Positions 15,928 to 16,081 of a stretch of DNA of 31,179 nucleotides are shown piece after piece. Below the pieces are notes generated by a model that saw only the letters and a program-made list of their open reading frames with translations, did not search any database and was not told the DNA's origin. A program made the position numbers and the translations under genes. The DNA comes from a virus. Lineage: Duplodnaviria > Heunggongvirae > Uroviricota > Caudoviricetes. The stretch lies in IMG/VR virus record IMGVR_UViG_2609459857_000004, positions 1-31,179 of that record, one strand, 5' to 3'. The stretch's first letter is position 1. Each line of letters begins with the position of its first letter.

Positions 15928-16000
15928 GCCGATTTAACTTAGCAGACAAAGCAACTGACTTGTAATCACCGGGTCGCCAGTTCGATTCCGGTAATCGGCA
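15928..16000 (+). tRNA. tRNA-like gene, anticodon UGU (Thr) with weak D and anticodon stems (possible pseudo-tRNA)
   Basis: 7-bp acceptor stem GCCGATT/AATCGGC, T-loop TTCGATT, anticodon loop CTTGTAA at canonical positions 32-38; anticodon stem only 3 of 5 pairs; followed by CTA not CCA. Confidence 0.4.
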
Positions 16001-16006
16001 CTATAT

Positions 16007-16081
16007 GCGGGTATCGTATAATGGCTATTACCTCAGCCTTCCAAGCTGATGATGCGGGTTCGATTCCCGCTACCCGCTCCA
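16007..16081 (+). tRNA. tRNA-Gly (anticodon UCC)
   Basis: Full cloverleaf folded by hand, anticodon loop CTTCCAA, encoded CCA end; nearly identical to recalled host glyT with a compensatory T6/A66 pair. Confidence 0.8.

What the first reader, a model, noticed from the sequence alone, without database searches (positions are those of the whole stretch)
15928..16081. Tandem phage tRNAs: a degenerate tRNA-Thr(UGU)-like gene next to a near-host-identical tRNA-Gly(UCC)
The Gly tRNA folds canonically and differs from recalled host glyT only by a compensatory acceptor pair. The adjacent Thr-like gene keeps acceptor, T-arm and anticodon loop but has only 3 of 5 anticodon-stem pairs and 3 of 4 D-stem pairs, so it may be a pseudo-tRNA or non-canonical tRNA.
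Basis: partly seen in the sequence, partly recalled or inferred. Interest (0 to 1): 0.45.

Follow-up and report, generated by a model that had tools for sequence, protein, structure and literature searches.

The report
Eroded prophage tRNA-Thr beside intact tRNA-Gly
A lambda-like prophage carries copies of two host tRNA genes: the glycine one is intact, while the threonine one is heavily mutated, and its broken anticodon stem matches the pattern recently shown to protect phage tRNAs from a bacterial defence nuclease, though this copy may be too damaged to still work.

Summary
Window 15928-16003 is a tRNA-Thr(UGU)-like gene and 16007-16081 a canonical tRNA-Gly(UCC). They sit between the Q antiterminator/methylase genes and the lysis genes of a lambdoid prophage.

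Both derive from the host thrU-tyrU-glyT operon. Gly equals host glyT except for a compensated C6-G67 to U6-A67 pair. The Thr-like gene differs from thrU at 13 of 76 positions.

Rfam accepts it (45.9 bits against thrU's 73.8). ARAGORN rejects it, and the PGAP-annotated RefSeq records leave it unannotated. The allele is rare, about 14 of 5,426 complete E. coli genomes.

New point: the anticodon-stem lesion (G42C, U43C) belongs to a recurrent allele class found here only in phage or prophage copies. It meets the published two-part rule for resistance to the P2 OLD tRNase, an altered CNG motif plus an unpaired 27:43. Phage 21 carries an experimentally protective tRNA-Thr in the same slot.

This copy also lost G10-C25, G19 and the encoded CCA. 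Its cloverleaf energy is -8.6 against -21.5 kcal/mol for thrU.

I put 0.55 on a nuclease-escape lineage, roughly even on whether this copy still works, and 0.30 on plain pseudogene decay. It is a new member of a known kind, of moderate interest.

The parts
13560..14126 (+). Q-like late antiterminator gene (context: start of the late region)
   Evidence: PHROG phrog_753 'anti-termination protein Q-like', E = 4.8e-80
14700..15746 (+). N6/N4 DNA methyltransferase gene immediately upstream of the tRNA pair (context)
   Evidence: Pfam PF01555, E = 3.7e-45; annotated as DNA-methyltransferase in related E. coli records
15826..15853 (+). Candidate sigma-70 promoter TTGAAA-N16-TAATAT, about 75 nt upstream of the Thr-like gene
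   Evidence: Found by the consensus scan with 9/12 matches; the number of such sites in the region is not above chance. Both hexamers fall in blocks that are invariant across five otherwise divergent lineages (alignment A2). Its function is inferred, not shown.
15861..15925 (+). Leader inverted repeat CGGTTCC (15861-15867) / GGAACCG (15919-15925) just 5' of the Thr-like gene
   Evidence: Predicted as a helix in the fold of 15855-16090. GGTTCC and GGAACC are conserved in relatives. Role unknown.
15928..16003 (+). thrU-derived tRNA-Thr(UGU)-like gene. Anticodon at 15961-15963; G42C/U43C at 15969-15970; G10A at 15937; G19A at 15946; CTA in place of CCA at 16001-16003.
   Evidence: Rfam 45.9 bits; no ARAGORN call; 13 differences from host thrU; cloverleaf energy -8.6 kcal/mol against -21.5 for thrU
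16004..16006 (+). 3-nt spacer TAT between the two tRNA genes, the same spacing as in about 100 related prophage Thr-Gly pairs
16007..16081 (+). Canonical tRNA-Gly(UCC) with encoded CCA; anticodon at 16040-16042; equals host glyT with C6-G67 replaced by U6-A67
   Evidence: ARAGORN; Rfam 65.6 bits; comparison with host glyT
16801..17871 (+). Lysis cassette: two holin genes and an M15 endolysin gene (context: downstream boundary of the tRNA slot)
   Evidence: Pfam PF16931, PF05449 and PF13539

Best explanation
The element is a diverged prophage paralogue of the host gene thrU, encoding tRNA-Thr(UGU). It sits with a copy of glyT in the lambdoid 'late-region tRNA slot' between Q and the lysis genes. 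Its shortened anticodon stem (U43C unpairs 27:43; G42C unpairs 28:42 and turns the 3'-strand C40-A41-G42 motif into C-A-C) places it in a recurrent allele class found here only in phage or prophage copies. That class fits the published two-factor rule for resistance to the P2 OLD Toprim nuclease. OLD kills infected cells by cutting host tRNA-ThrU after C28 and C40 of a paired CNG motif. Proposed mechanism (inferred): the pair is transcribed from its own promoter and/or the late transcript, then processed by RNase P and 3' trimming, with CCA added by the host enzyme. The Thr species would keep ACA codons readable when the host tRNA-ThrU is destroyed. This copy has accumulated further lesions (G10A, G19A, loss of encoded CCA). 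I judge it about even whether it still yields a working tRNA or is a decaying relic of such an allele. Shown here: paralogy to thrU, genomic position, the phage-only allele class, and the loss of structure. Inferred: nuclease resistance, expression, charging and decoding.
For: Paralogy: host thrU and glyT lie in the thrU-tyrU-glyT-thrT-tufB operon. About 100 IMG/VR prophage loci carry Thr followed 3 nt later by Gly, and 51 of those Thr copies are identical to thrU. Slot: Q at 13560-14126 and holins from 16801. Phage 21 has tRNA-Asn and tRNA-Thr directly after pR'/tR' and before S21. Allele class: GT to TC or CC at positions 42-43 occurs in 34 IMG/VR loci, on several D-loop backgrounds and in several array contexts. 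Among 185,579 species-representative genomes the only hit is an E. albertii contig identical to an IMG/VR viral contig, so it is never seen in a chromosomal thrU with this anticodon arm. Published rule (PMC12445682): OLD cuts after nt 28 and nt 40, and resistance needs both an altered CNG motif and a shortened stem. Examples are U43A plus G30C/C40G in tRNA-Thr6, and G27.A43 plus C28U/G42A in phage 21's tRNA-Thr21, which I confirmed in sequence. The unpaired 27:43 is kept across about 29 acceptor/T-arm backgrounds in 53 lytic-phage loci. C16 is also present, and U16C impairs PARIS AriB cleavage (PMC12409363). Retained in the window copy: G1-C72, C2-G71, G35, U36, A73, the whole anticodon loop and the T-loop. 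Two compensated pairs exceed chance (P = 0.028), and the changes avoid positions 23-41 and 50-66 (P = 0.039). The gene diverged more slowly than the adjacent intergenic DNA, 12-16% against 32-41%. The phage ORFs use ACA for 28% of Thr codons.
Against: The cloverleaf energy falls to -8.6 kcal/mol, against -17 for the simple TC/CC alleles and -21.5 for thrU. A competing helix (41-45 ACCGG with 61-65 CCGGU) is predicted. G19 is lost, as are G10-C25 and the encoded CCA, which the other full-length alleles of the family tabulated here keep. Seven of 11 changes run GC to AT, the direction of mutational bias. The number of broken pairs (3) equals the neutral expectation of 2.8. The gene diverged far faster than the adjacent Gly, 12/76 against 0/75, P = 3e-4. 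The allele is rare, about 14 of 5,426 complete genomes. ARAGORN does not call it and the PGAP-annotated records leave it unannotated. The same niche holds many obviously odd tRNA-like genes. Both cleavage-site cytosines (C28, C40) and the AriB site U36-A-A-U-C|A41 are retained. No Gam homologue was found among the ORFs scanned in the window. The CC change could arise in one templated step, because it makes 39-45 identical to 47-53 (TCACCAG), so its recurrence need not reflect selection.
Confidence: 0.55

Rival explanations
1. Plain pseudogene. A redundant prophage copy of thrU, originally carried for codon supply, is decaying under relaxed selection. Only the neighbouring tRNA-Gly is maintained. 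The 42-43 change is a neutral, possibly templated, mutation with no link to defence.
For: The Thr-like gene shows 12-16% divergence against 0% for Gly in the same lineage comparison. Seven of 11 changes are GC-to-AT transitions, and the number of broken pairs is as expected under neutrality. G19, G10-C25 and CCA are lost, and cloverleaf stability collapses. ARAGORN does not call it and the PGAP-annotated records leave it unannotated. The allele is rare. Anticodon-mutated or truncated scaffold derivatives are common in related arrays. Half of the prophage copies are identical to host thrU, a sequence reported to give little or no protection against OLD (PMC12445682). That implies the cassette's baseline role is not escape. 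The CC state equals a direct repeat of TCACCAG, so a single templated event suffices.
Against: The same 42-43 lesion recurs in otherwise intact, ARAGORN-positive alleles on several backgrounds and in several array types. It hits exactly the positions shown experimentally to govern OLD sensitivity. Two compensated pairs exceed chance (P = 0.028), and the identity elements, anticodon loop and T-arm are untouched. Divergence is slower than in the flanking intergenic DNA. All nine other copies of the allele (one E. coli genome, three IMG/VR, three metagenome) and about 14 genome records are identical across at least three different mosaic contexts, although the time depth is too shallow to be decisive.
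Confidence: 0.3
2. Non-decoding tRNA-like RNA. The transcript is made and folded well enough to bind a tRNA-targeting nuclease or another tRNA-binding factor as a decoy. Alternatively it serves only as a processing or spacing element for maturation of the downstream tRNA-Gly.
For: The acceptor, T-arm and anticodon loop are intact while the core is weakened. The PARIS paper raises non-productive complexes between viral tRNAs and effectors as a possibility (PMC12409363). The 3-nt spacing to Gly is fixed and the leader is conserved.
Against: For OLD, the rescue tRNA-Thr6 did not protect the endogenous tRNA-ThrU, which argues against competitive inhibition (PMC12445682). Nothing in the sequence specifically indicates a decoy. 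tRNA-Gly also occurs in arrays without an adjacent Thr gene (L142 and L148).
Confidence: 0.08
3. Ordinary functional tRNA-Thr(UGU) kept purely for codon supply. The mismatches are tolerated and have no defence-related meaning.
For: The phage ORFs use ACA (28% of Thr codons) and GGA+GGG (43% of Gly codons). By my recollection of E. coli K-12 codon tables that is roughly twice the host values. Thr(UGU) and Gly(UCC) read exactly those codons. The Rfam score is above threshold.
Against: A pure supply role predicts conservation like that of the neighbouring Gly or of the thrU-identical copies. Instead this is the most destabilised allele of the family.
Confidence: 0.07

Closest known systems
tRNA-Thr21 of lambdoid phage 21 (OL657228, 39671-39746), shown to protect against P2 OLD (PMC12445682)
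   Same: It has the same genomic slot, after Q/pR'/tR' and before the lysis genes. The anticodon is UGU, the 27:43 pair is unpaired and the CNG motif is altered. It is itself non-canonical, with C14.
   Different: It has a different scaffold: about 61.5 Rfam bits, cloverleaf energy -23.1 kcal/mol, a 4-bp anticodon stem, G18G19 and CCA intact. It is paired with tRNA-Asn rather than Gly. The window allele derives directly from thrU, loses two stem pairs, and lacks G19 and CCA. A recombinant between the two types exists ('family 2', L127: the 5' 25 nt of Thr21 joined to the thrU-TC 3' part).
tRNA-Thr6-type tRNA-Thr(UGU) of T-even-like lytic coliphages (rescue tRNA in PMC12445682)
   Same: It is a thrU-like sequence. 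The IMG/VR allele in L171 differs from thrU at exactly 12 positions, matching the paper's description of Thr6. U43 is changed so that 27:43 is unpaired, and the CNG motif is altered.
   Different: Thr6 changes the motif by a compensated G30C/C40G swap and keeps a 4-bp stem and a fully canonical core. The window allele changes G42 without compensation and is degraded elsewhere.
Host thrU and glyT of the thrU-tyrU-glyT-thrT-tufB operon
   Same: These are the direct ancestors. Gly is 73/75 identical and the Thr-like gene 63/76 identical.
   Different: tyrU and thrT are absent. The spacing is 3 nt. The context is a prophage late region. The Thr copy is degenerate.
Late-region tRNA arrays of Stx and other lambdoid prophages (ileZ-argN-argO type)
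   Same: They occupy the same position between Q and the lysis or toxin genes. Related loci combine ileZ-like and argN-like genes with Thr and Gly in a single array.
   Different: The window carries only the Thr-Gly pair. The names ileZ, argN and argO are from my own knowledge and were not tested here.
T5 tRNA-Lys/Thr/Asn variants that neutralise PARIS AriB (PMC11464382, PMC12409363)
   Same: The concept is the same: a phage tRNA isoacceptor that replaces a cleaved host tRNA. The U16C change present here is one reported AriB determinant.
   Different: The AriB cleavage-site sequence U36-A-A-U-C|A41 is unchanged in the window allele, so AriB resistance is not predicted with any confidence.

Membership tests
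Canonical bacterial elongator tRNA (cloverleaf, Rfam RF00005) | Score at or above the Rfam gathering threshold (29 bits) | tested here: met
   45.9 bits, E = 6.4e-07. For comparison: thrU 73.8, TC/CC alleles about 59-61, phage 21 Thr21 61.5.
Canonical bacterial elongator tRNA (cloverleaf, Rfam RF00005) | 7-bp acceptor stem, 7-nt anticodon loop with U33 and a purine at 37, T-loop TTCRANY with the G53-C61 pair | tested here: met
   Read from the sequence. The acceptor stem is 7/7, with the compensated U6-A67 pair.
Canonical bacterial elongator tRNA (cloverleaf, Rfam RF00005) | 5-bp anticodon stem and 4-bp D-stem | tested here: not met
   A27.C43 and C28.C42 are mismatched (3/5), and A10.C25 is mismatched (3/4).
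Canonical bacterial elongator tRNA (cloverleaf, Rfam RF00005) | Conserved G18-G19 in the D-loop (G19-C56 elbow pair) | tested here: not met
   Position 19 is A (window 15946).
Canonical bacterial elongator tRNA (cloverleaf, Rfam RF00005) | Genome-encoded 3' CCA, as in E. coli tRNA genes and in the other full-length alleles of this family tabulated here | tested here: not met
   The gene reads ACTA rather than ACCA (16000-16003). This is not fatal in principle, since the host CCA-adding enzyme could supply it (established knowledge; not tested here).
Canonical bacterial elongator tRNA (cloverleaf, Rfam RF00005) | Recognised by heuristic tRNA finders | tested here: not met
   ARAGORN gives no call. 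The PGAP-annotated RefSeq records of near-identical genomes show only tRNA-Gly. The rejection is marginal, because any single reversion of G10, G19 or 42-43 restores the call.
tRNA-Thr identity set for E. coli ThrRS (G1-C72, C2-G71, G35, U36; from established knowledge) | All four identity elements present | tested here: met
   All are present in the sequence. Actual charging cannot be tested with these tools.
OLD-resistant phage tRNA-Thr(UGU) (PMC12445682) | UGU anticodon and A37 | tested here: met
   15961-15963 reads TGT and A37 lies at 15964.
OLD-resistant phage tRNA-Thr(UGU) (PMC12445682) | Altered paired CNG motif at 28-30 / 40-42 | tested here: met
   The 3' strand changes from C40-A41-G42 to C-A-C, and C28 is no longer paired. 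The 5' strand C28-U29-G30 keeps its sequence.
OLD-resistant phage tRNA-Thr(UGU) (PMC12445682) | Shortened anticodon stem (27:43 unpaired) | tested here: met
   A27.C43 is mismatched and 28:42 is also lost, leaving a 3-bp stem.
OLD-resistant phage tRNA-Thr(UGU) (PMC12445682) | Resists OLD cleavage and rescues OLD toxicity by decoding ACA | not testable with these tools
   This needs a cleavage assay and a suppressor assay.
PARIS/AriB-resistant phage tRNA (PMC12409363) | Substitutions at or around the 40|41 cleavage site, and/or U16C | tested here: inconclusive
   C16 is present, but U36-A-A-U-C|A41 is unchanged. G42C and U43C lie next to the site.
Lambdoid late-region tRNA slot | Located downstream of Q and the late promoter, and upstream of the lysis genes | tested here: met
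   Q at 13560-14126, tRNAs at 15928-16081, holins from 16801. Phage 21 has the same layout.
tRNA pseudogene | Evolves at the neutral rate, with no constraint on structure | tested here: inconclusive
   The gene evolves faster than Gly (P = 3e-4) but slower than the flanking intergenic DNA. Compensated pairs exceed chance (P = 0.028), while broken pairs equal the neutral expectation. Identity among copies of the allele has no power, because the flanks differ by only 1-2%.

The most novel reading that the evidence does not exclude
The 'degeneracy' is itself the adaptation. On this reading the window allele is a working, stripped-down tRNA-Thr(UGU), with a 3-bp anticodon stem, C16, no G19-C56 elbow pair and no encoded CCA. 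It would have evolved directly from a captured host thrU, letting a temperate lambdoid phage keep translating ACA codons in cells armed with OLD-family or PARIS Toprim tRNases. The 42-43 TC/CC series in prophages would then be a natural, stepwise record of that arms race.
Probability: 0.27. Interest if true: 0.62.

Novelty: new member of a known kind. Interest (0 to 1): 0.45.

Why it matters
Phage tRNAs that replace host tRNAs destroyed by defence nucleases were only established in 2024-2026, mostly for large lytic phages plus phage 21. This locus shows that temperate lambdoid prophages of E. coli commonly carry a captured thrU-glyT cassette. A subset of the thrU copies has mutated exactly at the positions that govern OLD cleavage. 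If those alleles are resistant, they give a graded natural series for dissecting how Toprim tRNases recognise the anticodon stem: thrU-identical, then C16, then TC/CC, then the window allele. They would also help explain which prophages can spread among P2- or PARIS-carrying strains. There is a practical point too. Annotation pipelines leave such genes unannotated, so counter-defence tRNAs will be under-counted. If the copy is only a pseudogene, the finding is ordinary.

Tried and rejected
1. Conservation among copies of the window allele (one E. coli genome locus, three IMG/VR, three metagenome, about 14 genome records). All are identical except L041, but the flanks differ by only 1-2%, so the expected number of differences in 76 nt is about one. 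The test has no power.

2. Search for a Gam/RecBCD inhibitor in the window as an OLD trigger. None was found among the ORFs scanned. This was later judged weak evidence, because OLD also restricts HK97-type phages without strict dependence on Gam.

3. Thermodynamic MFE folding as a test of tRNA-likeness. Even the authentic thrU does not fold into a cloverleaf as its MFE structure, so I used constrained cloverleaf energies instead.

4. Promoter scan. The number of promoter-like sites is not above chance. Only cross-lineage conservation supports the site at 15826-15853.

5. Literature search for the prophage Thr-Gly cassette. Nothing relevant was found in the library. The supplementary tables of the OLD paper, which hold the rescue tRNA sequences, are not held. 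I therefore inferred the Thr6-type allele from an IMG/VR scan.

6. Recurrence of the 42-43 change as proof of selection. Rejected as proof, because CC makes a perfect TCACCAG direct repeat, and the TC version (ATCATCAG) equals the reverse complement of CTGATGAT in the Gly gene. Templated mutation plus recombination could spread the change without selection.

7. Alternative registers for the anticodon arm (for example a 4-bp CUGA/UCAG stem with a 10-nt loop in the TC alleles). Considered and set aside as non-tRNA-like and not applicable to the window allele.

8. Small ORFs overlapping the element (15773-15949 on the - strand, 15798-15965 on the + strand). Treated as spurious.

Full report
**1. 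What is there**

The window is a lambdoid prophage. Its gene order is:
- integrase (1-1020, - strand)
- RecE-like exonuclease (1307-3763, - strand)
- repressor (5837-6253, - strand)
- RusA (13204-13563)
- Q-like antiterminator (13560-14126)
- N6/N4 DNA methyltransferase (14700-15746)
- the two tRNA-like genes
- two holins and an M15 endolysin (16801-17871)
- terminase (19097-21336)

These assignments come, and from the annotation of a near-identical E. coli locus.

The Rfam tRNA model matches 15928-16000 (45.9 bits, E = 6.4e-07) and 16007-16078 (65.6 bits). ARAGORN reports only tRNA-Gly(UCC) at 16007-16081.

**2. Origin**

The host operon thrU-tyrU-glyT-thrT-tufB supplies both ancestors.

The window Gly equals host glyT except for C6T and G67A, a compensated pair.

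The Thr-like gene differs from thrU at 13 of 76 positions: C6T, G10A, C13T, T16C, G19A, T20C, G22A, G42C, T43C, A44G, A49G, G67A and C75T. Their effects are:
- 6:67 and 13:22 are compensated double changes.
- A49G turns A-U into G.U.
- The T-stem A52.C62 mismatch is already present in host thrU.
- G10A breaks the 10:25 pair.
- G19A removes the conserved G19.
- G42C and U43C break 28:42 and 27:43.
- C75T removes the encoded CCA.

A Thr gene followed 3 nt later by Gly is common in IMG/VR prophage contigs, with about 100 loci. In 51 of them the Thr gene is identical to thrU.

Related prophages extend the cassette into arrays such as Met(CAU)-Arg(UCU)-Thr-Gly or Asn-Thr-Gly. The LT-IIb phage has two copies of the pair, and in one of them the thrU scaffold carries the anticodon UCU.

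**3. How unusual is this allele**

The window allele occurs in about 14 of 5,426 complete E. coli genomes. It also occurs in three IMG/VR contigs and three metagenome contigs, all identical. One variant, L041, keeps G67 and CCA.

It appears in at least three mosaic contexts. The modules upstream of the methylase differ, and the sequence changes completely right after the Gly 3' end in L041 and L135.

The PGAP-annotated RefSeq records show only tRNA-Gly in the near-identical genomes, but tRNA-Thr plus tRNA-Gly in relatives with canonical alleles.

ARAGORN's rejection is marginal. Reverting any one of G10, G19 or 42-43 restores a tRNA-Thr call, and all three lesions together are needed to lose the call on the thrU background.

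Scores and cloverleaf energies fall in steps:

| Allele | Rfam tRNA score (bits) | Cloverleaf energy (kcal/mol) |
|---|---|---|
| Host thrU | 73.8 | -21.5 |
| Common phage alleles (C16/C20) | 70-71 | -21.5 |
| TC or CC at 42-43 | 59-61 | about -17 |
| Window | 45.9 | -8.6 |
| L041 | 43.7 | -8.6 |
| Phage 21 Thr21 | 61.5 | -23.1 |

In the window allele a competing helix is predicted between 41-45 (ACCGG) and the T-stem 3' strand.

**4. The anticodon-stem lesion is not private**

A scan for thrU-type anticodon arms with a non-G at position 42 found 34 IMG/VR loci.
- GT to TC occurs on three D-loop backgrounds, in plain pairs and in longer arrays. It also occurs in a 'family 2' gene.
- GT to CC occurs in L022 and L133, which are otherwise canonical and are called by ARAGORN.

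The same scan over one genome per species (185,579 species) returned a single hit. It is an E. albertii contig identical to an IMG/VR viral contig. So chromosomal thrU genes with this anticodon arm never carry the change.

'Family 2' is a recombinant inside the tRNA gene. Its first 25 nt equal phage 21's tRNA-Thr and the rest equals the thrU-TC allele. In 13 of 17 loci it carries T68C, which restores the G5-C68 pair.

**5. Link to published biology**

Govande et al. (PMC12445682) report the following:
- P2 OLD causes P2-lambda interference by cutting host tRNA-ThrU(UGU) after nt 28 and nt 40. [quoted passage not shown]
- Phage tRNA-Thr(UGU) rescues the cells.
- Resistance requires both an altered CNG motif and a shortened stem. 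The examples are U43A plus G30C/C40G in tRNA-Thr6, and a shorter stem plus C28U/G42A in phage 21's tRNA-Thr21.
- Extra host tRNA-ThrU does not protect.

I retrieved phage 21 (OL657228). Its tRNA-Asn and tRNA-Thr lie directly after pR'/tR' and before S21, the same slot as here. Thr21 has G27.A43 and also a non-canonical C14.

A scan for the Thr6-type arm found 53 loci, mostly on lytic-phage contigs of 100-190 kb. They span about 29 acceptor/T-arm backgrounds and all keep A27.A43. [quoted passage not shown] G42C turns C40-A41-G42 into C-A-C and unpairs C28. Both parts of the rule are met, by a different mutational route.

Belukhina et al. (PMC12409363) show that PARIS AriB also targets tRNA-Thr(UGU), cutting between nt 40 and 41, and that U16C impairs cleavage. 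C16 is present here and in about 30% of the prophage copies. The AriB site sequence itself is unchanged, so I make no claim about AriB.

A second OLD study reports restriction of HK97-type and other phages without strict dependence on Gam, and partial rescue by viral tRNAs. The absence of a Gam gene among the window ORFs scanned is therefore weak counter-evidence.

**6. Is this copy alive or dead**

For constraint:
- All ThrRS identity elements (established knowledge), the discriminator base, the anticodon loop and the T-loop are intact.
- Two compensated pairs exceed chance (P = 0.028).
- The 11 changes relative to the commonest phage allele avoid positions 23-41 and 50-66 (P = 0.039).
- Against the nearest lineages the gene diverged 12-16%, while the homologous upstream intergenic DNA diverged 32-41%.

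For decay:
- Gly in the same comparison has 0/75 changes, against 12/76 for the Thr-like gene (P = 3e-4).
- Seven of 11 changes are GC-to-AT transitions.
- The number of broken pairs equals the neutral expectation.
- G19 and CCA are lost and cloverleaf stability collapses.
- The allele is rare.
- The niche is full of anticodon-shifted or truncated tRNA-like genes.

The recurrence of CC is not proof of selection either. It makes 39-45 identical to 47-53 (TCACCAG), so one templated event would give both substitutions.

**7. Expression context (inferred)**

A TTGAAA-N16-TAATAT motif at 15826-15853 lies in blocks that are invariant across divergent lineages. The pair also lies downstream of Q. Transcription both in lysogens and late in infection is therefore plausible.

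The phage ORFs use ACA for 28% of Thr codons and GGA+GGG for 43% of Gly codons. By my recollection of E. coli K-12 codon tables that is about twice the host values. This fits a baseline codon-supply role for the cassette and a particular dependence on tRNA-ThrU.

**8. Verdict**

The best account is a thrU-derived prophage tRNA-Thr(UGU) of a short-anticodon-stem allele class. That class matches the OLD-escape rule, and this copy is further eroded (confidence 0.55). I consider it roughly even whether the window copy still functions.

Plain pseudogenisation with no defence link is the main rival (0.30). A decoy or processing role (0.08) and a pure codon-supply role (0.07) are minor rivals.

It is a new member of a known kind, namely phage counter-defence tRNAs in the lambdoid late-region tRNA slot. 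Interest is moderate. The cleavage, suppressor and tRNA-seq experiments listed under next steps would settle it.

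Noticed in passing
window 16007-16081; host glyT in L125 1487-1561: By my numbering, tRNA-Gly(UCC), both the host and the phage copy, also has a paired CNG pseudo-palindrome at C28-A29-G30 / C40-U41-G42 plus A37. That is the substrate motif reported for P2 OLD. The OLD paper's main text does not mention tRNA-Gly. The phage Gly copy shows no escape-type change.
   Followed up: partly
window 16084 onward; L041 and L135: Mosaic breakpoints fall immediately after the 3' end of tRNA-Gly, where L041 and L135 become unrelated. In the SerU-LTIIb phage (L003) two Thr/Gly pairs bracket an inserted segment. The conserved tRNA pair seems to act as a recombination joint between late-region modules.
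   Followed up: partly
L127-L132, L015, L140, L150, L153 (IMG/VR); L155 (E. albertii): The 'family 2' tRNA-Thr is a hybrid. Its 5' 25 nt come from phage 21's Thr21 and its 3' part from the thrU-TC allele, and it sits between a phage-21-type tRNA-Asn and tRNA-Gly. Thirteen of 17 loci carry T68C, which restores G5-C68. ARAGORN misses it, while Rfam gives 49 bits.
   Followed up: partly
L138 2795-2866; L133 504-580; L142/L148 'tRNA-?'; L003 1122-1197: Related arrays contain anticodon-shifted derivatives of the same scaffolds. These are a glyT scaffold with UAC and a truncated 3' acceptor strand, an argN-like scaffold with UUU or with a 6-nt loop, and a thrU scaffold with UCU plus G24A and A31G. 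Whether these are pseudogenes or recoded tRNAs is unknown.
   Followed up: no
thrU-derived alleles, tRNA positions 39-53 (window 15966-15980): The CC change makes positions 39-45 (TCACCAG) an exact direct repeat of 47-53. The TC version (ATCATCAG) equals the reverse complement of CTGATGAT in the adjacent Gly gene. Either could arise by a single templated mutation.
   Followed up: no
window 16199-16597: This 132-aa ORF is annotated as a hypothetical protein in relatives and has no Pfam or PHROG match. It contains a strong terminator-like hairpin at 16443-16462, followed by a T-run. It may not be a real gene, and the hairpin may terminate the tRNA transcript.
   Followed up: no
window 15861-15925: A conserved inverted repeat, CGGTTCC / GGAACCG, encloses about 50 nt of leader just 5' of the Thr-like gene. 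GGTTCC and GGAACC are kept in divergent lineages while the sequence between them varies. Its function is unknown.
   Followed up: no
L027 and L039 (IMG/VR): Only the 3' part of thrU, from about position 32 to CCA, is present and is joined to unrelated sequence. This looks like an att-site duplication from an element that integrates into thrU.
   Followed up: no
L001 3107-4204 (E. coli ETEC1732, same allele): In this relative a different Q gene and an ompC-like porin gene lie between Q and the methylase. So the allele travels with different upstream modules.
   Followed up: no
L138 12332-12510 and 9111-9227; L127 258-435: Rfam hits in fetched relatives: the RalA antitoxin sRNA, an ALIL (IS3 frameshift) pseudoknot, and the sRNA STnc100. 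These are unrelated to the finding.
   Followed up: no
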